42,722 nucleotides of DNA, from positions 1-42,722 of the IMG/VR virus record IMGVR_UViG_3300048905_000037. One strand, written 5' to 3'. This document shows positions 2,294-37,013 of this stretch, piece after piece. The position numbers and the translations under genes were made by a program. The notes below the pieces were generated by a model that worked only from the letters and a program-made list of their open reading frames with translations, did no database searches and was not told the origin of the DNA. This stretch comes from a virus. Each line of letters begins with the position of its first letter. Position 1 is the stretch's first letter.

Positions 2294-4276
2294 TCAGGCA
2301 TAACGGTTGCAGGTGACGGTTGCGCGCCATGCCCCGCCATACCCCAGCAACAGCGCGTTATTGGCGAGAACTTCGAGAACGCCGTTATTCAGGCGCACAT
2401 CTTCGGTGCCAGCCACGGTCTTGGTCTGGTAGGTGTTCGTGTTGCTTGCGCGGCTGTAGGTGAACTTGGCCATAGGAACGGGGTTCCGATCGCCTTGGCC
2501 CATGACGAAGGTGACGTCAGCGATGCCCAGCGTGCCGATGTATTGCGTCAGGTCGATCAGCGGCTGGTATACGCCGCTCGCCGCCGCGATCTGGCCTTCC
2601 GCGGCGACCACGGCGGCATCGCCCACGGTGATGATCGAGTTAGTCGGCGACTCTGGCCAGTCGAGGGTGTAAGTTGCCTGCGTCACCGGGATGTTCGAAC
2701 GGCTCGTGCTCGAATAGCGGTTGCTGATGATCGCGATATCGGCCGGCGCAGTCACGTTGGCTTCCTTGTGGATGCCTGAATACCCGAAGCCTGCGGTATT
2801 CGTGCTGTCGATCCCGTTCCCCACGACCGTGATCTTCTCTGCTTTGCCCGTAGCTGGAGCGCTCAGCCGGATACCGGCCGCCGTGCATGCGCGCAGGCCA
2901 TTGGCACTGATCGTCAGCGGGCCGCGCTGGTCCACCAGTGAAATCGCGTCGGACACCTTTGTGATCGTGTTGGCGCCGATAGTGTTCACACCATAGTTGC
3001 CGCGCGGGCCAATGCCAGCCAGTATGCCGATCCCGGTGTTAGAGATCGCATTTCCCGAGACCGTGCAGCCGCGCGTGTAGGCGCTGTTGAGCAGAAACAG
3101 GTCAGCATCTGCTGCGTTCAAAGCTGCAGTGGTCGTATCGCCAGCCTCGTTGCCTTCCAGCGAGATGCCTGCGGAGGTGAAAAGCACGGTGCCGTCGTAA
3201 GCAATATCGCGAATCGTGTTGTCGCAGGCCGTGCTGTTGGACGAGCCGACTAGGGCGACGCCGATACCGAAGCCGCCCGAAACCGTGTTGTTGTTCGCCC
3301 GGTTGCCGTTACCACGCTGGAAGCAAATGGCGCGGCCTGCCTTCGTGGCCAGGACATGGTTGCCGCATGCCGAGCTGTTGTTGGTGTTGAAAATGTAGAT
3401 CGTGTTGTCACCGCCACGGCGCATCACGTTGTCGTCGACCCGATGGTTATCGCCGCCGGCGATGCAAAGTAGGGTGCCGTTGAAGTCGATATCGCAGTCG
3501 AGGACCGTGAACTGGTTGCAGTTGTAGGCGACGATGCCGAAGCCCCAATATGCAGCCGGCACCGCCGTCCCCGCCGGGCGATTGATCGATGCCGTTCCGG
3601 CACCAGTGCATCCGGCCTTCATGCCGAGCAGCTTGATATTGTTGCAGGTGTCGAACATCAGCAGGTTGTTCGATTCCCACGTGATCTGCGCGCCGCTGAA
3701 GTCGAAGGTGACATTGTCGACGCCGGTCATATACACATTCTGCGCCAGGCGGAATTTGCCCTTCACGCGAACGTAGCTGTTTGCCGGCGTGGCATTCAGC
3801 ATCTTCTGGAAGGCGGCTGTGTCGTCGGTGGTGCCTTCCGCCACGGCGCCGAACTGCTGCGGCTTGATCGTGTCGCGCAGCTCGTCTTGAATCGTGCGCT
3901 TGATCGCGCCAACGCCTGCCTGGATGAAGCCGACGAGAGCAGATCCGGCAGCTTTGAACAGCCCGCCCACCACCGCCGCAATGCTGAACTCGTCCGACGT
4001 GCGAGCGTAGAAGACTTGGCGCTTCTTCGAGTCCTGAACCAATTCAGAATAGGCGCCGTCGAAGAACACGTTCGCCGGCGTGCCCGCGCGCAGGATGTAG
4101 CCGTTCATGGTGCGCAACGGCTGGGCGGCAGGGATGGTGCCGGCAGCGTCCCAGTACACTTCAACTTGCGCAGTGATCGGATTTTGGTTCGGCTGGCCGA
4201 AGTACACGTAGCCGTTGTCCAGCGGCTTGCCGTCGAGGCCGGTGTAGACTTTGAAGGGTTGTTCGACTGGGAGCAT
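2294..4276 (-). CDS. Tailspike with P22-type N-terminal head-binding region and right-handed beta-helix (pectate-lyase-like) body; probable polysaccharide depolymerase
   Basis: The N-terminus (DNGYVYFGQPNQNPITAQVEVYWDAAG...QPLRTMNGYI) resembles the P22 gp9 head-binding segment. QQFGAVAEGTTDDTAAFQKML is a pectate-lyase-3-type start. Repetitive N/G-rich beta-helix rungs follow. SD GAGGA lies upstream. Confidence 0.8.
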   Translation of the reverse strand: MLPVEQPFKVYTGLDGKPLDNGYVYFGQPNQNPITAQVEVYWDAAGTIPAAQPLRTMNGYILRAGTPANVFFDGAYSELVQDSKKRQVFYARTSDEFSIAAVVGGLFKAAGSALVGFIQAGVGAIKRTIQDELRDTIKPQQFGAVAEGTTDDTAAFQKMLNATPANSYVRVKGKFRLAQNVYMTGVDNVTFDFSGAQITWESNNLLMFDTCNNIKLLGMKAGCTGAGTASINRPAGTAVPAAYWGFGIVAYNCNQFTVLDCDIDFNGTLLCIAGGDNHRVDDNVMRRGGDNTIYIFNTNNSSACGNHVLATKAGRAICFQRGNGNRANNNTVSGGFGIGVALVGSSNSTACDNTIRDIAYDGTVLFTSAGISLEGNEAGDTTTAALNAADADLFLLNSAYTRGCTVSGNAISNTGIGILAGIGPRGNYGVNTIGANTITKVSDAISLVDQRGPLTISANGLRACTAAGIRLSAPATGKAEKITVVGNGIDSTNTAGFGYSGIHKEANVTAPADIAIISNRYSSTSRSNIPVTQATYTLDWPESPTNSIITVGDAAVVAAEGQIAAASGVYQPLIDLTQYIGTLGIADVTFVMGQGDRNPVPMAKFTYSRASNTNTYQTKTVAGTEDVRLNNGVLEVLANNALLLGYGGAWRATVTCNRYA

Positions 4277-4286
4277 GGTTCCTCGA

Positions 4287-6269
4287 TCAGTGCAGGGTTG
4301 CGCCGGCCGGGCGGGCCGCTGGCGGGGTTCGGGGTTGAGTAGTGGCGTGCGCGCGGGTCAGCGCCTGCTCGATGCGACGCTGCAGCTGACGATTCTTGAC
4401 CTGCTTGGAGAGCACGCGCAGGGTGGACAGCACCGGGACTGGGAGGCCGGTCATGGAGCCGGTAACGCCGGCTTCAGCGAATGCCGCGAGCAGCACGCTT
4501 GCCGTGTTCGAGGTGTTCACAGATCCGGGCGGTGTGGTGTAGATCACTTTCGCCAGGTCGTTGAGGTCGCGCAGGTGCTGCGCGCCTTGCTTGCCGAAGA
4601 GGGTCTGTAGGCGGCCATCGGAGTCGAGACGCTTGATTGCGCGGTCCAGCTTCGGCACGGACAGGATCACGTTGCCGCGCTGGTCGGTCGCAGTATTCGC
4701 GAACGCCTGCTCCTTGATCCAGTTCATCGTCTCGCCCTGCAGGTCTTTCCAGGCCTGCTGGCCCAGGTCGCGAATCTCGGCCGGTGCATCCACGCCGTGC
4801 GTGAGCGCGCGGCGCACAGCCGACACGTCCTCTCGGCTGGCGTTCAGGATGGAGTGCTCGAACACGTCTGCAATCGCCACCTTGCGGTCGGCCATGCCGC
4901 GCTTGTTGTTCAGCAGGGAGGCGACGACGCCGCGGTCCTCATATTTCTTGGCCAGGTTCTCGCGTAGCCGGCGCGCCTGGCGGTACAGTGGACCGATTGC
5001 TGGCTCGGTCGCGCTGTCAATCGCGCCCTTCAGGATGGCCGAGTTTCGGATATTGGTCGGCTCGTAGTCGGTCGCGTTGCCGATCGCGCGGCGCAGCAAC
5101 TCAGCATTCTTTACCGTGGTCGGCTGGGCCACCAGGTTGCCATCGGCGTCTTCGATCGCGGCGCCCAAGCGGATGGCACGCTGTCGAGCGGCGCCCAGCA
5201 ATGGCGACACGGCGGCGTCCGGCGCGCTCTCGTTCAGGAAGTCAATCGCGGCGTCAAGCGTAACCGGCGCCGCGCCCTCGGCGGACTTCTCGGCCTGCTT
5301 GTAGGCGACGCGCACGCGGCCCTTGTCGTAGTCGAGGCCGGCGCGCAGGCTGGTGTCGACCGAGCGTCCGGTGCCGGCCAGGTCCGGTGTTTCCTTGCCT
5401 GTCTGGTCGATCAGGTTGTCGAAATGCTTAAGTACCTGCTCGTTCTGGTCCGAGTAACGATCACGTAGTTTGACGCCGTTCTCACCCTTGGCCGTCTCCT
5501 GCTCGAAGCGTAGTTGCTGCTGGTCGCGAGTGGCCTGGCCGAGGGTGAGGTCAATACCGACTTGGTCGGCGACCTGTTGTCGCTGGGTGGCCATGTCAGT
5601 GCCGGCTGCGCCGACGCTGCCGCGCGTGCCGGGCGTCGAGGTCGAATCAGGGTTGCGGCTCAGGGTGCGCTGCACGCGCTCAGCAATCGCCGGCGCTGCG
5701 GTACGGATGCGAGCGATGCCGGCCTGCGCCGCAGTGCCGCCGATGTCGCGCGCCGCTGCGGTTACGCTGCGCGCCGCCTGCGCAGCAGTTCCCATTTCGG
5801 CCGTCAGTGCAGTTGCTGGAAGAGCCGCCGCCAGAGCTTCGCCAGCGGCAGCAGCCTGCTCTTGACCGGACTCGGTGCGCGGCTGGTAGGTAAGGGCCGA
5901 TGCCGCGTCGCCGGCGGCCTGCTCGACCTGGCGTACGCCGGCTTGCGTGCCGAACGTGCCGTCCATGACTGCGCCGGCCAGCCCCTTTACCGTGCCTCCG
6001 AGTGCGCCGATTGCGCCGCCAGTGGCCCCGGTTGCGAGCGCCAGGGCAGCTTCGCCAGTGCCGATTGCTTTGTCGGCCAGCGAGCGGGGTGGGGCCGGGG
6101 TAGGTACAGCGGGCGCAGGGCCGGAGCCAACGTCTCGCGGCACAGCGTCGCCGGCGCGGCTCGTCCTAATCTGGTTCACGCGCTGGCGGAGCGAGTCGGA
6201 GTTCGGGTCAACGTCGTCCGGGATGTTCTGGACGGTGATGCCATCCTTGGTCGTGATCGAGTAGGGCAT
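4287..6269 (-). CDS. Internal virion / DNA-ejection protein (P22 gp16 position)
   Basis: 660-aa Ala/Gly/Gln-rich protein in the gene slot just before the tailspike. The start overlaps the upstream stop. Assigned by synteny only. Confidence 0.5.
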   Translation of the reverse strand: MPYSITTKDGITVQNIPDDVDPNSDSLRQRVNQIRTSRAGDAVPRDVGSGPAPAVPTPAPPRSLADKAIGTGEAALALATGATGGAIGALGGTVKGLAGAVMDGTFGTQAGVRQVEQAAGDAASALTYQPRTESGQEQAAAAGEALAAALPATALTAEMGTAAQAARSVTAAARDIGGTAAQAGIARIRTAAPAIAERVQRTLSRNPDSTSTPGTRGSVGAAGTDMATQRQQVADQVGIDLTLGQATRDQQQLRFEQETAKGENGVKLRDRYSDQNEQVLKHFDNLIDQTGKETPDLAGTGRSVDTSLRAGLDYDKGRVRVAYKQAEKSAEGAAPVTLDAAIDFLNESAPDAAVSPLLGAARQRAIRLGAAIEDADGNLVAQPTTVKNAELLRRAIGNATDYEPTNIRNSAILKGAIDSATEPAIGPLYRQARRLRENLAKKYEDRGVVASLLNNKRGMADRKVAIADVFEHSILNASREDVSAVRRALTHGVDAPAEIRDLGQQAWKDLQGETMNWIKEQAFANTATDQRGNVILSVPKLDRAIKRLDSDGRLQTLFGKQGAQHLRDLNDLAKVIYTTPPGSVNTSNTASVLLAAFAEAGVTGSMTGLPVPVLSTLRVLSKQVKNRQLQRRIEQALTRAHATTQPRTPPAARPAGATLH

Positions 6270-9690: not shown

Positions 9691-11107
9691 TCAGGGGCTC
9701 CAGTTGGGCTTCCAGGCGCGCGAAGGCCACATGTGCATCGCTCGTGCCTCGGAATCGCTGGATGCGCCACTGCTCCATCGTGCCCTGGCCCATCCATACG
9801 AGGCGTTTGCGGCGGTCGCCCTGCTGGCCGGCGCGTACGCTGCGCTCCATGCTCCAGGTCTCGCCGTCAAGGCTGTACGATGTCCAGACGACCGGATCCG
9901 CGCCGAATGCGACACGACCAGGCAGCCCGACGAGCTCCAACTGGTGGAAGATGGCCCCGAACCCGCCGTTGTAGACGATGCCTGTGCCGAACTCCCAGCC
10001 GATGGTCTGGCCGTAGTGGGTCGACACCGTTTCATCCAACCGACCCAGGGCGCCCGAGGTCGGGTCTGCGCACTGCCATCCGTTGTAGCACCACAGGAAG
10101 TCGCGCGCGCGGTACTGCGCCGGTGCGCCCAGGCCCGAATCGAGCGTGAACCAGACAGGCTCTTGCACTGCGGCCGATGCGGCAGCATCGTAGACCAGGG
10201 TGCGGTCCAGCAGATGGACGTAGAGCAGGGCGTGCGTATCGTTCAGGCGCGTCTCGAGCACGGCTTCAGCCAGTTGCGCCTCGGTGTAGTTTCGGAGTAC
10301 CTTGTCGATTTCGCTGGTCGATATCTTCTGGCTTGCTCCATTGACACCGACCCAGACCGCCGGCGGCTCCACGCTCTGCTTTGTGCGGCCGCCGCCCAGG
10401 AATGCGATCTGGTCGGTGCCATCGACCTTGAACAGGGTTGCAGTATGCGTGCCGATAGCGCCGCGGTTGATCTGCGCGCCGGCCACCCGGGCGAAGGGAT
10501 AGCCAGTGCCGCCGACGTTCTCGAACATCTCAATTGTGAAGCGGTTGACCGAGTAGAACTCGCCGGCGCGCGCCGTCAGGTTGCACTTGATCGGGTCCGG
10601 GTCCGCCTCGCTGCTGCCGTACTTGAGCGGATTCACCGACATCGGGTCGTTCAGGTCAGTGACGACGTTCGAAGTGCCGTCCGTGGTGACGAAATACCCG
10701 TCGCGGAACATCACATCGAGCACCAATCCAATATCGGGATCGATTACCTGTGTCAGGGCGCCGTTCCAGTAGTACAGGTTGCCGCCGCCGGCGATTGCCA
10801 GCCGGTCGAACGAGTAGTCAAAGCTGCAGCGACCAGAGCCGGCGATGGTGCCCAGGACGGTTACGGTGCCGTCGTCGTCCACTCGCACTAAGCTTGAGCC
10901 CTGCACGCGGTAGGAGACGCCGTTCCAGACAATGCCGCCGCGCGCTAAGCCGGGGCCAGTACCGACCTGCACGACACCCTCCGCCGGCCGCAGATAGCCG
11001 TTGCTGATGCCCTGCGCGCGCGGCACAGGCTGCATATTGCGTGGGTACGAGACGCGGAAGTCTGGCGCCTCGCTCGTGTAGATGCCGCTCAGGATGGGTA
11101 TCTGCAT
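9683..11107 (-). CDS. P22 gp10-like tail hub / packaged-DNA stabilisation protein
   Basis: The start MQIPILSGIYTSEAPDFRVSYPRNMQPVPRAQGISNGYLRPAEGV matches the characteristic N-terminus of the phage stabilisation protein family. ATG confirmed at 11105-11107. Confidence 0.75.
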   Translation of the reverse strand: MQIPILSGIYTSEAPDFRVSYPRNMQPVPRAQGISNGYLRPAEGVVQVGTGPGLARGGIVWNGVSYRVQGSSLVRVDDDGTVTVLGTIAGSGRCSFDYSFDRLAIAGGGNLYYWNGALTQVIDPDIGLVLDVMFRDGYFVTTDGTSNVVTDLNDPMSVNPLKYGSSEADPDPIKCNLTARAGEFYSVNRFTIEMFENVGGTGYPFARVAGAQINRGAIGTHTATLFKVDGTDQIAFLGGGRTKQSVEPPAVWVGVNGASQKISTSEIDKVLRNYTEAQLAEAVLETRLNDTHALLYVHLLDRTLVYDAAASAAVQEPVWFTLDSGLGAPAQYRARDFLWCYNGWQCADPTSGALGRLDETVSTHYGQTIGWEFGTGIVYNGGFGAIFHQLELVGLPGRVAFGADPVVWTSYSLDGETWSMERSVRAGQQGDRRKRLVWMGQGTMEQWRIQRFRGTSDAHVAFARLEAQLEPLNA

Positions 11108-29002: not shown

Positions 29003-29701
29003 ATGGAAACTATGGCCTCAAGAATCGAGCGACTGCTCAATGACAAGAACGGCGGCAACCAATCCGAGATGGCGCGTTTCATCGGGGTGAGTCCGCAGGC
29101 CGTGCAGAAGTGGATCGCTGGCGGCTCGGAGCCACGCGGGAAGAATCTCGAGTTGGCGGCCGAATTCTTGGGTGTGACGCCGGCCTTCCTGAAGTTCGGT
29201 CTTCAAGTAGAGCAGGCTGCTGAAATCAGCCAGCTGCTACCTGGAGCGCGCCGAGTGCATGCATCCGACGCTGACGATCCGAGCATGACGCAGATCATGA
29301 AGGTGCGGCTGAAAGTTCAAGCTGGGATTACGGGCTTCCAGGTCGAGCCCGAGCATTACGACGGTGAGACGCAAGGGGTGCCCACCAAGTGGATTGAGCG
29401 AGAGGGGCTGCACAAGTCCTCGCTGCTGTCGATTGTAGTCCGTGGAGACAGTATGGAGCCCGCCTTATATGACGGCGACGTAATAGTGGTGAACACCGCA
29501 GATAAGTCGCTGGTGTCTGGCACGGTCTACGTCATTAACTACGAAGGCGAGGCAGTCGTGAAACGGATGATTCGCGACGCGGGCCAGTGGTGGCTTGCCT
29601 CAGACAACCCAGATCAGCGCAGGTATCACCGCCAGTTGTGCAAGGGCGCCGAATGCATCGTGATCGGCAAGGTAGTGCGCAAAGAAAGTACTCATATCTG
29701 A
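29003..29701 (+). CDS. cI: CI-type repressor, XRE HTH plus S24 (LexA-like) autopeptidase domain
   Basis: The N-terminal HTH is QSEMARFIGVSPQAVQKWIAG. The C-terminal domain has VRGDSMEP (Ser) and VVKRM (Lys). Confidence 0.85.
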   Translation: METMASRIERLLNDKNGGNQSEMARFIGVSPQAVQKWIAGGSEPRGKNLELAAEFLGVTPAFLKFGLQVEQAAEISQLLPGARRVHASDADDPSMTQIMKVRLKVQAGITGFQVEPEHYDGETQGVPTKWIEREGLHKSSLLSIVVRGDSMEPALYDGDVIVVNTADKSLVSGTVYVINYEGEAVVKRMIRDAGQWWLASDNPDQRRYHRQLCKGAECIVIGKVVRKESTHI

Positions 29702-34747: not shown

Positions 34748-34766
34748 CCACAAGAGAGAGACAGTG

Positions 34767-35510
34767 ATGACCCAAGAATTCGAAACCACGCGCACCGAAC
34801 TGGCTAACCACTTTGCAACCGCCGGCGCCGCTCTGCTGGACCACATGGGCTGCACGGCAGCGGTGGCAGCAATCCCAAACACGACGGACTATGCCGTCGC
34901 CGGGTCGCTGGCGGGCATCCTGTCATTGGCAGGGACGATGCTCCCGGCCGCAGCAGTAGAGAAGCCAACCGGCGATCTGACGGATGAACAAATTCTCGTT
35001 CTTGCGAGGCAAGAGGCTGATGAGTGGGAGCATTCGTTTATCTTCAACAAAGAAGACCGATTCTCCGTCTTAACCTTCGCCCGCGCCATCGAGCGCGCTG
35101 CTATTGCCGCTCACCTCGCCAAAGAACCGAGAGCAGAGCAGCCGGCAGCGTGGTTCAAAGGGAAGATCGACGCGGGCGATTACGACCGTGAGGCCGGGAC
35201 AATGCGCATCACGGTCAAGCTACCGTTTGCCGGTCTACCGGAAGCGCTTCTCACCATCGGCGCCAACGCATGCATTTCCGCCGCTCCGGTAGCTCAGGCC
35301 GTTGCACAGGAAGCCCAGCATAAGGCAGTGCCGGAAGAAGTCGCTGGCGTGAACATCGCCCGACTGCTGCGCAACCTGGATGAAACCAACTACAACGAAG
35401 GCGCGATGGACTTGGCTTGCCGCCTGTCGGACTGCCGCGCTGTTATCAAAGAACTGCTTGCTGCTCCGGGCGCACAGGAAGCCGCCATTGACATTCCCCC
35501 TCGACCTTAA
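34767..35510 (+). CDS. Hypothetical protein (247 aa); its C-terminus abuts and overlaps the tnpB 3' end
   Basis: ATG at 34767 after GAGAGAG. The stop TAA (35508-35510) shares TTAA with the tnpB stop. Confidence 0.55.
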   Translation: MTQEFETTRTELANHFATAGAALLDHMGCTAAVAAIPNTTDYAVAGSLAGILSLAGTMLPAAAVEKPTGDLTDEQILVLARQEADEWEHSFIFNKEDRFSVLTFARAIERAAIAAHLAKEPRAEQPAAWFKGKIDAGDYDREAGTMRITVKLPFAGLPEALLTIGANACISAAPVAQAVAQEAQHKAVPEEVAGVNIARLLRNLDETNYNEGAMDLACRLSDCRAVIKELLAAPGAQEAAIDIPPRP

Positions 35511-35640
35511 TTGGCGGGGATTCCCTCCGCAGGCGCTTGATGTCCCAAGCGGGAAGAGAACCTGGACAGAATATTTTTGGCCGCATTCACATCACGATCA
35601 TGAACGCAACCGCACTCCGTACAAGCCCACTCCCTTATTC
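35400..35640 (-). ncRNA. Expected location of a TnpB omega RNA (reRNA); boundaries not determined
   Basis: Placed by analogy with characterised TnpB elements, where the guide RNA overlaps the 3' end of tnpB and runs into the right end. Only short GC stems were seen by eye. Confidence 0.3.
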
Positions 35641-36614
35641 CAAGGCCTGCGATACCTTTCGGCCGCGAATCGGGCAGAGCGCCGCAATTCGAACAGGTTT
35701 GGGTGGTGAAACCTTCATCAACTTCCTCGTACCACGCGCCATGCTTAATAGCCTTGTACGCGAGCATGTTTCGGAAGGACGACCAGCCGGCATCAAGAAC
35801 GGATTTCGCCATGCTGGTTTTCGTGAGCTTAGCAGCATTCACATTGCCTACTGCGATGTAATCGAAATCCCGCACGATTCGATGCGACAGCTTGTGCAGG
35901 AAGTCGCGGCGGCAGTTCCCGATTTTCGCGTGGATGTTCCTGGCCTGCCGTGCTTTTCGCGCGCGCTGGGCTTTGGCAAGGGCTTCTGCAAGTTGTCTAA
36001 GGTGTCGCGGGTTTTCGATCTTTTCTCCGTTGGAGAGGGTCGCGAAATCCTTAAGCCCCAGATCGATACCAGCGCCTGCAACGGGGGCGCGCGCGGCGCC
36101 GTCATCGACTTCGATGACGATATTCAGAAACCAGTTGCCGCGCGAGTCAAGCGAAAAGTTCGTGCCATCTTTGATTTTGCCTTCGGGCAGACGGCGCGAG
36201 TTGAAAACTCGGTATGTACTCCCGTAAAAACGGAAGGCGTCGCCTTCGCGCTTGAGGTCGGAGCCCTTAAGGGGAATCCAGCCAAGGGATTTTCGACCAC
36301 GGTAGCGAAGGTAAGGGCGGTTGCGTTGAATTCGGCTTTGGGCGTACTTCTGGCACACCGCATTAATCGTGTTGGAGCTAAGGCCAAGTTCCTTGCTGCT
36401 GCCTGCCGTCAGGTAGTTGAGGTCAAACCCGCTCAGCCACTTCTTTCCCCATTTCAGCGCGTCCTTCTGCCGATCATTGCAGTAGTTGAAAACGAAATTT
36501 ACCGCCCTGGCCTGCTTATTCAGTAGGCCAGTTAGAGACTTAACTCGATAGCGATACACAAGGATCATAAAACAAATGATAAATGAAAATTCAGACCGAG
36601 AGCGCGCCGACCTC
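35469..36614 (-). mobile_element. Putative TnpB-only IS200/IS605-family-like insertion; provisional boundaries set by the flanking direct repeat
   Basis: It is the only opposite-strand gene in the operon. It is flanked by CTtGCTGCTCCG (35457-35468) and CTcGCTGCTCCG (36612-36623). No terminal inverted repeats and no transposase were seen. Confidence 0.35.
35507..36568 (-). CDS. tnpB: TnpB-family protein (IS200/IS605 OrfB; RNA-guided nuclease fold), 353 aa, no partner TnpA
   Basis: The ATG at 36568 starts MILVYRYRVKSL...AVNFVFNYC. RuvC-I is GIDLGLKD (D169). It has the AKSVLDAGWSSFRNMLAYKA motif, a zinc ribbon TCSNCG...CTECG and RuvC-III HDRDVNAAKNIL. The longer ORF-track N-terminus (to 36862) is antisense junk. 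Confidence 0.85.
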   Translation of the reverse strand: MILVYRYRVKSLTGLLNKQARAVNFVFNYCNDRQKDALKWGKKWLSGFDLNYLTAGSSKELGLSSNTINAVCQKYAQSRIQRNRPYLRYRGRKSLGWIPLKGSDLKREGDAFRFYGSTYRVFNSRRLPEGKIKDGTNFSLDSRGNWFLNIVIEVDDGAARAPVAGAGIDLGLKDFATLSNGEKIENPRHLRQLAEALAKAQRARKARQARNIHAKIGNCRRDFLHKLSHRIVRDFDYIAVGNVNAAKLTKTSMAKSVLDAGWSSFRNMLAYKAIKHGAWYEEVDEGFTTQTCSNCGALPDSRPKGIAGLGIREWACTECGCVHDRDVNAAKNILSRFSSRLGHQAPAEGIPAN

Positions 36615-37013
36615 GCTGCTCCGACCAGCACCGCTACCGCGTCGGGCAGCGCACAGAGCGACCTAACGACTGTTGACTGCATCGAGTGCGGCGGCAGCGG
36701 CGAAATGTTCGGCGGCTTTGGGTGCGACGAGTGCGACGGCCAAGGAAAGCTCATCGTGTCGCGGAAGGACATGGCAGAGCTTACCAGCGCACAGGCCAGC
36801 CAGGCAGCTGCATCCGAGGTACGCGATGCTGCGCTGGAAGAAGCGGCGAAAGTGGCAGACACACACTGCTACGGCCCCTGCGGAGAATACGACTACTCCT
36901 ATAACGACGCATCGGCAAAAGCTGACGAACGTGCCGAGCAGATCGCCAGCGCAATCCGGTATCTGCGCACCAATCCCGCTACCCCGGCCAGCAAAGGAGA
37001 GGGCCATGAGTGA
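36576..37013 (+). CDS. Hypothetical protein with a DnaJ-type CxxCxGxG zinc-finger motif
   Basis: CIECGGSGEMFGGFGCDECDGQGK. The ATG at 36576 is only 7 nt from the divergent tnpB start. Confidence 0.55.
   Translation: MINENSDRERADLAAPTSTATASGSAQSDLTTVDCIECGGSGEMFGGFGCDECDGQGKLIVSRKDMAELTSAQASQAAASEVRDAALEEAAKVADTHCYGPCGEYDYSYNDASAKADERAEQIASAIRYLRTNPATPASKGEGHE

What the first reader, a model, noticed from the sequence alone, without database searches (positions are those of the whole stretch)
35507..36568. Stand-alone TnpB-family gene sitting antisense inside the PL early operon of a temperate phage
A 353-aa minus-strand ORF is the only minus-strand gene between 30.9 and 41.3 kb. It has the TnpB/IS605-OrfB layout:
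- N-terminus YRYRVKS...AVNFVFNYC
- RuvC-I GIDLGLKD (D169)
- AKSVLDAGWSSF...AYKA
- a CxxC...CxxC zinc ribbon (C292/C295, C316/C319)
- HDRDVNAAKNIL

No TnpA (Y1 or serine recombinase) is present anywhere in the window. The gene is packed in tightly. Only 7 nt separate its ATG (36568) from the divergent neighbour's ATG (36576). Its stop shares the palindrome TTAA (35507-35510) with the convergent neighbour's stop.

TnpB is established as a transposon-borne, omega-RNA-guided nuclease that cuts the empty donor site. In a phage this would amount to RNA-guided homing, or to exclusion of co-infecting relatives that lack the insert. Because PL is repressed in a lysogen, an antisense-oriented gene could be expressed from the prophage without collision. 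I know of no characterised role for TnpB in a temperate-phage early region, so the functional part is hypothesis.
Basis: partly seen in the sequence, partly recalled or inferred. Interest (0 to 1): 0.85.

Follow-up and report, generated by a model that had tools for sequence, protein, structure and literature searches.

The report
Immobilised TnpB element splitting a phage gene
The 353-aa antisense gene is a genuine TnpB RNA-guided nuclease with its guide-RNA region intact, but it is what remains of an ordinary insertion sequence that landed inside a phage early gene and lost its left end; a role in phage-to-phage homing or exclusion is plausible but was not shown here.

Summary
Observation confirmed. 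ORF 35507-36568 (-) is a TnpB: it hits the Pfam OrfB_IS605 and zinc-ribbon domains and scores 231 bits on NCBIfam guided_TnpB. It lies antisense in the early-left recombination operon of a lambda/P22-like temperate phage.

Three corrections:
1. The canonical RuvC-II glutamate is a glycine (G241). This is invariant in 105 relatives, as are E282 and E285. It matches the published RIIr-5 "rearranged catalytic site" clade, not a dead enzyme.
2. The two tightly packed neighbours are halves of one gene. An uninterrupted positional ortholog follows NinB in another contig.
3. The family is a common Burkholderiales tnpB-only IS. It has TAM TTCAT, a ~100-nt left end with a hairpin, and a right end finishing in GTCAA. 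The window keeps the right end and a covariation-supported omega-RNA scaffold, but has no left-end hairpin.

Left-end-less copies are enriched in viral contigs (15/21 versus 11/78) and evolve under purifying selection (dN/dS 0.12-0.17). A Pseudomonas prophage relative has a perfect TAM+guide target in phage D3.

Most likely this is an immobilised TnpB/omega-RNA module that can cut insert-free alleles. The homing or exclusion role is inferred, and the idea is already in the literature. It is a new member of a known kind.

The parts
35507..36568 (-). tnpB coding sequence, 353 aa plus stop. RuvC-I is D169. The RuvC-II position is G241, with candidate replacement glutamates E282/E285. The zinc ribbon is C292/C295/C316/C319. 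RuvC-III is D326.
   Evidence: Foldseek top hits are ISDra2 and ISFba1 TnpB (the model is of modest quality, pLDDT 64).
35488..35702 (-). Omega-RNA-like scaffold overlapping the 3' end of tnpB and the right end (RE). Helix 35534-35551 is CGCTTGG/TCAAGCG. Helix 35524-35533 is CCT/AGG. The RE hairpin is 35497-35520, with the tnpB stop codon in its loop. The conserved terminus GTCAA ends at 35488.
   Evidence: 43-sequence alignment A1. RNAalifold gives 19 covarying pairs. 96.4% of cells are paired versus 83.1% in shuffles (0/500) and 37-43% when slid. Coordinates were mapped.
35468..35487 (-). Predicted guide segment: the first 16-20 nt outside the RE, 5'-TGGCGGCTTCCTGTGC(GCCC)-3'. It is antisense to the codons for ..GAQEAA of the interrupted gene.
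   Evidence: Family conservation stops exactly after GTCAA. That the flank serves as guide is inferred by analogy with ISDra2 TnpB. In the P. aeruginosa relative the same position matches phage D3 after TTCAT.
36569..36582 (-). Fourteen-nt remnant upstream of the tnpB ATG. It holds a -10-like TATCAT (36576-36581) placed 7 nt before the ATG. No left-end hairpin is present.
   Evidence: A -10 hexamer lies 6-7 nt before the ATG in 48/50 canonical copies, against a 2% background. The LE profile has no hit anywhere in the window at E<=10. The block TTTATCATTTG is shared with L276/L277, L105 and L087.
36583..36587 (-). TTCAT pentamer, identical to the family's transposon-adjacent motif (TAM). It may be the original insertion TAM.
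   Evidence: 49/57 canonical copies have TTCAT directly 5' of the LE. Joining 35487 to 36583 gives an in-frame ORF. The case is uncertain, because L276 has TTGGT and L105 has TTCAG at the aligned position.
34764..35510 (+). N-terminal fragment of the interrupted phage gene. The last 7 residues (IDIPPRP) and the stop are encoded by the antisense strand of the RE.
   Evidence: P0122 aligns to residues 1-253 of the reconstructed protein. P0122 follows a DUF1367/NinB gene just as this ORF does.
36576..37013 (+). C-terminal fragment of the same gene. Its ATG-ATA start is the reverse complement of the element's -10 box.
   Evidence: Residues 69-142 align to the C-terminus of P0122 (E 8e-4). Residues 13-140 align to P0141 (E 4e-8). 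One P0141 HSP spans both fragments.

Best explanation
This is a tnpB-only IS200/IS605-family element (IS1341 type). Its TnpB belongs to the clade in which the RuvC-II glutamate has moved (RIIr-5 of Altae-Tran et al. 2023).

The element inserted, antisense, inside a phage early gene just downstream of ninB and split that gene in two. Since then it has lost its ~100-nt left end, including the hairpin that a Y1 TnpA transposase needs, so it can no longer transpose.

What survives is exactly what TnpB itself needs:
- an intact ORF;
- a -10 box placed for a leaderless mRNA;
- a structured omega-RNA scaffold that overlaps the 3' end of the gene and stops at the right-end terminus GTCAA.

The RNA would continue into the flank and carry the fixed guide TGGCGGCTTCCTGTGC.

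Inferred mechanism: the TnpB/omega-RNA complex cuts DNA that reads TTCAT followed by that guide sequence. That is the uninterrupted allele of the same gene in related phages or in a precise-deletion derivative. Recombinational repair from the insert-bearing genome would then copy the module in (homing), or the cut competitor is lost (exclusion).

Shown: the identity, the anatomy, the loss of the left end, the gene split, the RNA structure and the purifying selection. Inferred: nuclease activity, expression, the TAM assignment in this copy and any benefit to the phage.

The confidence figure applies to the whole statement. Taken separately, identity and anatomy are about 0.95, the split gene about 0.75, and the homing/exclusion function about 0.35.
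For: **Identity**
-.
- G241, E282 and E285 are invariant in 105 relatives. This matches the RIIr-5 description: Glu replaced by Gly, an alternative Glu, and a DRDxN RuvC-III motif (PMC10691335).

**Canonical family anatomy**
- Eleven copies in Burkholderia sp. BCC0397 define the element: TTCAT, then an LE with a hairpin and promoter, then tnpB, then an RE hairpin ending in GTCAA.
- TTCAT precedes the LE in 49/57 copies.

**This copy**
- The RE is conserved to 19 nt past the stop.
- No LE is detectable.
- The omega-RNA helices show compensatory changes and are all preserved in the window.

**Split gene**
-.

**Selection after left-end loss**
- L105 versus L087, both LE-less with the same 5' junction: dS 0.37, dN 0.045.
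- Window versus L105: dN/dS 0.17.
- 14/15 LE-less viral copies have intact ORFs and 13/15 keep GTCAA.
- LE-less copies make up 15/21 viral versus 11/78 genomic copies, p=9e-7.

**Proof of principle in a relative**
- A P. aeruginosa D3-like prophage carries a 75%-identical tnpB.
- Phages D3 and phPA-G carry the unoccupied site TTCAT|GTCTCACCTCGCGTTCGCGTGCATGCGGC, identical to the TAM plus the RE flank.
Against: - No RNA, protein or cleavage data exist.
- No complete sigma-70 promoter lies upstream; only a -10-like hexamer remains.
- No insert-free close relative of this phage, and no natural target of its guide, was found in viral or metagenome collections.
- Whether the TTCAT at 36583-36587 is the true TAM is uncertain, because the aligned position differs in the closest LE-less relatives.
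- To my knowledge nuclease activity of RIIr-5-type TnpBs rests on structural modelling. I did not search the literature for experimental tests.
- The enrichment of LE-less copies in viral contigs depends on a profile built from genomic copies, and three of the viral copies are distant (46-63% identity).
- The dN/dS values are partly depressed by the RNA overlapping the last ~200 nt.
Confidence: 0.55

Rival explanations
1. Inert relic. This is an IS insertion that merely happened to be tolerated, lost its left end by deletion, and is on its way to decay. TnpB does nothing for the element or the phage in this copy.
For: - No LE and no full promoter.
- It disrupts a host-phage gene.
- No relatives close enough exist to show retention at this site (the best full-length hit is 84%).
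- Its GC is lower than the surroundings, which suggests foreign origin.
Against: - The ORF is intact and every catalytic and zinc ligand is kept.
- All omega-RNA helices are preserved by compensatory substitutions relative to relatives.
- The LE-less lineage shows dN/dS 0.12-0.17.
- Decay is asymmetric: the LE is lost while the RE/omega-RNA is kept in 13/15 LE-less viral copies.
Confidence: 0.25
2. Still an ordinary mobile IS. The element transposes with a TnpA supplied in trans by the host genome, and the phage is just one of many landing sites.
For: - The family is multi-copy and clearly mobile in Burkholderia, with 11 copies in one genome.
- RIIr-5 is reported to be as mobile as other clades.
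- The P. aeruginosa prophage copy has both ends and a clean empty site in D3.
Against: - The LE hairpin and TAM-proximal LE sequence that Y1 transposases require are absent from the whole window.
- Only 14-25 nt upstream of the ATG are shared with relatives.
Confidence: 0.07
3. A TldR-like domesticated, nuclease-dead RNA-guided repressor. The missing RuvC-II glutamate means the protein only binds DNA and silences a target promoter, as phage-encoded TldRs do for flagellin.
For: - G241 replaces the canonical glutamate.
- There is a phage-borne precedent for TldR (PMC10705468, PMC13418256).
- The copy is immobilised.
Against: - The same glycine is invariant in the multi-copy mobile relatives.
- D169, D326, E282/E285 and the zinc ribbon are all conserved, and the protein is full length.
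- The guide is simply the insertion flank, and it has no second match in the window beyond chance.
Confidence: 0.06

Closest known systems
ISDra2 / IS608-type TnpB with omega (re)RNA (IS200/IS605 family; PDB 8H1J, 8EXA)
   Same: - Same domain set, RuvC-I and RuvC-III aspartates and zinc ribbon.
- The guide-RNA scaffold overlaps the 3' end of the gene and stops at the right end.
- A 5-nt TAM sits on the left (TTCAT here, TTGAT in ISDra2).
- The stop codon and hairpin lie at the RE.
   Different: - Only 22-25% identity in the structural alignments.
- The RuvC-II glutamate is replaced by glycine.
- There is no tnpA.
- In this copy the left end is missing.
RIIr-5 major clade of TnpB (Altae-Tran et al. 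2023, PNAS; PMC10691335)
   Same: - Glycine at the RuvC-II glutamate position.
- A conserved alternative glutamate about 41-44 residues downstream.
- A DRDxN RuvC-III motif and an intact C4 zinc finger.
- Mobile in genomes.
   Different: - Clade membership was judged from motifs, not from a tree with the published representatives.
- The paper does not describe LE-less phage-borne members.
IS1341-group (tnpB-only) insertion sequences
   Same: - tnpB is the only gene.
- Relatives are multi-copy, have hairpin-bearing ends and insert 3' of a fixed pentamer without target duplication.
   Different: The window copy has only one end and so fails the definition of a transposable IS.
Free-standing homing endonuclease genes of phages (T4 Seg/Mob), and "transposon non-restorative homing" proposed for TnpB (PMC13565253)
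   Same: - A nuclease gene with no transposase, wedged between or inside conserved phage genes.
- The predicted target is the allele that lacks the insert.
- It is located in a recombination-gene region.
   Different: - Recognition would be RNA-guided.
- No homing or exclusion has been shown for any phage-borne TnpB that I found.
TldR (TnpB-like nuclease-dead repressors) of temperate phages
   Same: Phage-borne, immobilised TnpB derivatives with a fixed guide.
   Different: TldRs have lost catalytic residues and target host promoters. This protein keeps a complete (rearranged) active site, and its guide is the insertion flank.

Membership tests
TnpB (RNA-guided endonuclease, IS200/IS605 OrfB) | OrfB_IS605 (RuvC) domain plus C-terminal zinc-ribbon (TNB) domain above curated thresholds | tested here: met
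   PF01385 scores 63.5 bits (cutoff 30.5). PF07282 scores 83.4 bits (cutoff 26.3). NF040570 scores 231 bits (cutoff 100).
TnpB (RNA-guided endonuclease, IS200/IS605 OrfB) | Canonical RuvC D-E-D triad | tested here: not met
   D169 and D326 align to ISDra2 D191 and D361, but E278 aligns to G241. The same holds in all 105 relatives, so this is a clade trait.
TnpB (RNA-guided endonuclease, IS200/IS605 OrfB) | Structured guide-RNA scaffold overlapping the 3' end of the gene and ending at the right transposon end | tested here: met
   19 covarying pairs. 96.4% of cells are paired versus 83.1% in shuffles (0/500). Whether the RNA actually exists is not testable here.
TnpB (RNA-guided endonuclease, IS200/IS605 OrfB) | TnpB/Cas12f fold | tested here: inconclusive
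   The Foldseek top hits are 8h1j and 8iaz TnpB (E 9e-15 and 4e-14, probability 1.0). However, TM is only ~0.3, because the AF2 model is mediocre (pLDDT 64, pTM 0.46).
RIIr-5 clade (rearranged RuvC-II) | Gly in place of the RuvC-II Glu, plus a conserved alternative Glu; DRDxN in RuvC-III; C4 zinc finger kept | tested here: met
   G241, E282 and E285 are invariant. DRDVN and the four Cys are conserved. The description comes from PMC10691335. Placement in the published tree was not tested.
IS200/IS605 transposable element | Right end with subterminal hairpin and conserved terminal cleavage motif | tested here: met
   The hairpin is at 35497-35520 and GTCAA ends at 35488. GTCAA is invariant in 43/43 aligned relatives.
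IS200/IS605 transposable element | Left end with subterminal hairpin adjacent to the TAM | tested here: not met
   The LE profile built from 24 canonical copies finds nothing in the window at E<=10. Only 14 nt lie between TTCAT and the ATG.
IS200/IS605 transposable element | TAM immediately 5' of the element | tested here: inconclusive
   TTCAT is at 36583-36587 and gives an in-frame reconstruction. But the closest LE-less relatives have TTGGT or TTCAG at that position.
IS200/IS605 transposable element | Y1 (or serine) transposase in cis, or multiple identical copies showing mobility | tested here: not met
   There is no tnpA in or beside the element. There is one copy in the 42.7-kb contig. 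The host genome is not available.
TldR (nuclease-dead TnpB repressor) | Loss of RuvC catalytic residues and/or C-terminal truncation | tested here: not met
   The protein is full length, with D169, D326, E282/E285 and the zinc ribbon conserved.
Homing endonuclease gene (function, not ancestry) | The nuclease's target is the homologous allele lacking the gene | not testable with these tools
   No insert-free close relative of this phage was found. For the P. aeruginosa relative the condition is met in silico: D3 and phPA-G carry the TAM plus at least 24 nt identical to the RE flank.

The most novel reading that the evidence does not exclude
Temperate phages of Burkholderiales and Pseudomonas may maintain a class of left-end-less, TnpA-independent TnpB/omega-RNA modules as free-standing RNA-guided homing endonuclease genes. 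These modules would persist and spread by cutting the uninterrupted allele in co-infecting or resident relatives. They would act as a competition or exclusion weapon for the phage that carries them, rather than as transposons.
Probability: 0.25. Interest if true: 0.7.

Novelty: new member of a known kind. Interest (0 to 1): 0.4.

Why it matters
TnpB's only demonstrated natural job is to restore its transposon after TnpA excision. A copy that cannot be excised, yet keeps its nuclease gene and guide RNA under purifying selection inside phage genomes, would be a natural case of TnpA-independent "non-restorative homing".

That would give RNA-guided nucleases a role in phage-phage competition. It would also fill a step between selfish transposon nucleases and domesticated effectors such as Cas12 and TldR.

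The D3-like Pseudomonas prophage found here, whose guide matches cultivable phage D3 perfectly, makes this testable at the bench. If the hypothesis fails, the locus is simply one more IS scar in a prophage.

Tried and rejected
**Searches that found nothing**
- Megablast of the whole window against 50,697 phage records gave no match, so no annotated close relative exists.
- An exact look-up of the TnpB in the contig index found nothing on record.
- The reconstructed empty site gave 0 hits as a 20-mer in viral contigs.
- An 18-mer in metagenomes and TAM+11 nt in viral contigs gave 120+ and 27 hits. All are 18-25-nt chance matches with no flanking or protein homology.
- A second target of the guide inside the window was sought. 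Only one 3-mismatch match turned up, within chance expectation.
- Rfam has no omega-RNA family hit. The only match is a chance snoRNA hit at E 0.46.
- The full sigma-70 promoter scan found no sites.

**Hypotheses I dropped**
- Nuclease-dead TnpB: rejected, because the Gly is shared by multi-copy mobile relatives and matches the published RIIr-5 clade.
- L105/L087 as direct sisters of the window copy: the NJ protein tree does not group them, although synonymous distance is lowest to them and they share the -10 block. Recombination within tnpB is likely, since L105 and L087 diverge from the RE hairpin onward.
- L105 splitting a g39327-like gene in the same way: not supported.
- Antisense orientation as a phage-specific feature: rejected. 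A crude ORF-strand tally shows the same bias in chromosomal copies, and the TAM/start-codon coincidence explains it.

**Limits**
- The AF2 model was too poor for active-site geometry, and coordinates are not returned.
Full report
**1.

The minus-strand ORF 35507-36568 runs from ATG to TAA and encodes 353 aa.
- It hits Pfam OrfB_IS605 (2.8e-17) and the Cas12f1-like zinc-ribbon domain (1.2e-23).
- It scores 231 bits on NCBIfam guided_TnpB, against a cutoff of 100.
- It matches ISDra2 TnpB in the PDB at E=3e-29.
- A modest AlphaFold model (pLDDT 64) finds TnpB and Cas12f structures first (8h1j, E 9e-15).

The window is a lambda/P22-like temperate phage.
- Tailspike, portal, large terminase, DnaB and primosomal genes are on the minus strand.
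- A cI-like HTH_3+S24 protein (29003-29701) is on the plus strand.
- It is followed on the plus strand by an SSAP-like gene, an exonuclease, NinB/Orf, many small ORFs, an excisionase-like gene (position and size only, no family hit) and an integrase gene not confirmed by any profile search.

tnpB is the only credible minus-strand gene in that operon. Between 31 and 35 kb the other minus-strand ORFs have shadow-frame composition; further right the compositional signal is weaker. The 7-nt gap between start codons and the shared TTAA at the stops are as described.

**2. The catalytic site is rearranged, not dead**

Aligned to ISDra2, D169 and D326 match D191 and D361. E278, however, falls on G241 in IAVGNVN. 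In 105 relatives G241 is invariant, and so are E282 and E285 in W[YF]EEV[DN]E.

This is the signature published for the RIIr-5 major clade: glutamate replaced by glycine, an alternative glutamate supplied from a nearby loop, and mobility like other clades (PMC10691335). Multi-copy, evidently mobile relatives share the glycine. It is therefore not a sign of TldR-like inactivation.

**3. The family is a common IS, and its anatomy can be read from multi-copy genomes**

More than 5,000 homologs exist. The best are 72-84% identical and come from Burkholderiales and P. aeruginosa. Eleven copies in Burkholderia sp. BCC0397 align from a sharp left boundary to a sharp right boundary. The layout, left to right, is:
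- TTCAT;
- an LE of ~95 nt, with a hairpin (GAGAAACCCCGNCC-TTCA-GGNCGGGG) and a promoter;
- tnpB;
- an RE hairpin with the stop codon in its loop;
- GGACGTCAA.

TTCAT directly precedes the LE in 49 of 57 non-redundant copies. A -10 hexamer sits 6-7 nt before the ATG in 48/50 copies, against a 2% background, which implies a leaderless mRNA.

**4. This copy keeps the right end and the guide-RNA scaffold**

Family-wide nucleotide conservation runs through the last ~200 nt of the ORF, including third codon positions. It stops 19 nt after the stop codon, at GTCAA (window 35488).

RNAalifold on 43 sequences predicts 32 pairs, of which 19 have compensatory changes. 96.4% of cells are paired, versus 83.1% in shuffles (0/500) and 37-43% when partners are slid.

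The window keeps every helix, with its own compensated sequences:
- 35534-35551, CGCTTGG/TCAAGCG;
- 35524-35533;
- the RE hairpin 35497-35520.

The sequence just outside, TGGCGGCTTCCTGTGC(GCCC), is the predicted guide.

**5. The left end is gone**

Only 14 nt lie between a TTCAT pentamer (36583-36587) and the ATG. Those 14 nt hold TATCAT plus a 7-nt spacer. An LE profile finds nothing anywhere in the window, and no complete promoter is called.

The closest relatives are L276/L277 (84%) and the viral contigs L105/L087. They share the same TTTATCATT[TG]G block and also lack an LE. Because L276 has TTGGT and L105 has TTCAG where the window has TTCAT, I cannot say whether that pentamer is the original TAM.

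**6. The neighbours are two halves of one gene**

Joining 35487 to 36583 gives an uninterrupted 383-aa ORF.
- P0122 (316 aa) aligns to residues 1-253 of that ORF. Its C-terminus aligns to the C-terminus of the 36576 ORF (E 8e-4).
- P0122 is encoded directly after a DUF1367/NinB gene, just as 34764 is.
- P0141 gives a single HSP spanning both fragments and aligns to residues 13-140 of the second fragment (E 4e-8).

This explains the tight packing. The upstream fragment reads 7 codons into the antisense RE and stops in the palindromic loop (TTAA). The downstream fragment starts at ATGATA, which is the reverse complement of the element's -10 box.

**7. Is it a relic or maintained?**

- L105 and L087 share an identical LE-less 5' junction, yet they differ by dS 0.37 and dN 0.045 (dN/dS 0.12).
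- Window versus L105 gives dN/dS 0.17, with the lowest dS of any comparison.
- Among distinct family copies, 15/21 from viral contigs lack a detectable LE, against 11/78 from genomes (Fisher p=9e-7).
- 14/15 of the LE-less viral copies have intact ORFs and 13/15 keep GTCAA. One of them (L099) has an LE 515 nt upstream.

So the end needed only for TnpA is lost, while the end that doubles as guide RNA is kept. This asymmetry, together with purifying selection, argues that TnpB/omega-RNA function is what selection retains. There are three caveats. The profile was trained on genomic copies. Some viral copies are distant. The overlapping RNA lowers dS.

**8. A relative shows what the target looks like**

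P. aeruginosa P0061 (75% identical) sits antisense between the S24 repressor and the integrase of a D3-like prophage, with both ends intact. Joining its flanks reconstructs a site that phages D3 and phPA-G carry unoccupied...GCTGCTATGTTCAT|GTCTCACCTCGCGTTCGCGTGCATGCGGC. This site is identical through the TAM and at least 24 nt of the RE flank.

This confirms the boundary and TAM inference for the family. It also shows that insert-free relatives with a perfect TAM+guide target circulate. For the window itself no such relative was found.

**9. Interpretation and comparison with what is known**

The identity is secure: a TnpB with its omega-RNA, from a tnpB-only IS200/IS605 element of the RIIr-5 type. 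As a transposon it fails a defining test, because it has no left end. As a TldR it also fails, because the active site is kept.

The best functional reading is that it cuts the uninterrupted allele and so homes into, or excludes, relatives. This is an inference from established TnpB biology. It has already been formulated as "non-restorative homing" for co-infecting phages and plasmids (PMC13565253). TnpB genes are annotated in at least 114 deposited phage genomes.

The antisense placement needs no prophage-specific logic. In 49/57 canonical insertions the reverse complement of the TAM (ATGAA) opens an outward ORF of at least 60 aa. In D3 it is the orf66 start codon. So this family tends to sit antisense at gene starts.

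**Verdict**

This is a real and correctly identified gene, with ordinary origins. The modestly interesting point is that the nuclease-plus-guide half of the element seems to be kept in phages after the transposition half is lost.

Noticed in passing
L088 ~9860-10000; also L011, L009, L012, L015, L017, L018, L043, L046, L096/L097 and L086 (minus-strand copy): A 42-43-aa ribbon-helix-helix gene (Pfam RHH_3 1e-11, RHH_1) lies between a canonical left end and tnpB. It is translationally coupled to tnpB (..AAAAATGA). An RHH-TnpB pairing has been described for an archaeal clade with a different catalytic rearrangement, but to my knowledge not for this bacterial RIIr-5-type family.
   Followed up: partly
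Canonical family loci (for example L010, L008, L025 and L001 at 7898); phage D3 locus L247 ~1700: The TAM TTCAT is the reverse complement of ATGAA. In 49/57 insertions that ATG opens an outward ORF of at least 60 aa, versus 54% for control ATGs. In phage D3 it is the annotated orf66 start. The reverse complement of the LE terminus (CTCGGAGCAAATCTG|ATG) places a GGAG 8 nt before that ATG. The element thus seems to slip between a gene's RBS and its start codon and to supply a replacement Shine-Dalgarno.
   Followed up: partly
L001-L003, 10264-12002: The P. aeruginosa D3-like prophage that carries the related tnpB also carries a diversity-generating retroelement signature (RVT_1 reverse transcriptase plus bAvd), about 1.2 kb downstream of the tnpB.
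   Followed up: no
window 36660-36750 (residues ~30-58 of the 36576 ORF): The interrupted phage protein contains a DnaJ-like CxxCxGxG-type cysteine module (DCIECGGSGEMFGGFGCDECDGQG). This module is absent from its positional ortholog P0122. The early-region proteins here are mosaics of short shared motifs, such as APTSTATASGSAQ and LRTNPATPASK.
   Followed up: no
window 2294-4276 and 4287-6269 (minus strand): Two adjacent ORFs of exactly 660 aa each. The first has tailspike/colanic-acid-degradation PHROG hits and the second has none. They may be a duplicated or swapped receptor-binding module.
   Followed up: no
window 36593-36613 (minus strand); L276 ~425-455: A hairpin followed by a T-run lies immediately upstream of the -10 box of tnpB, both in the window (weak, needs G-T pairs) and in its closest relative L276 (GCCGCATTGCGGCTTTTTT). 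It could be a remnant of the second LE hairpin or an insulator against read-through. The number of terminator-like sites in the region equals the chance expectation.
   Followed up: no
L105 versus L087 (tnpB 3' end, about 40 nt before the RE terminus): These two viral contigs are 91% identical from 70 nt upstream of tnpB to just before the RE hairpin. From there on they carry different RE hairpins and unrelated flanks. This suggests recombination between different family members within the tnpB gene.
   Followed up: partly
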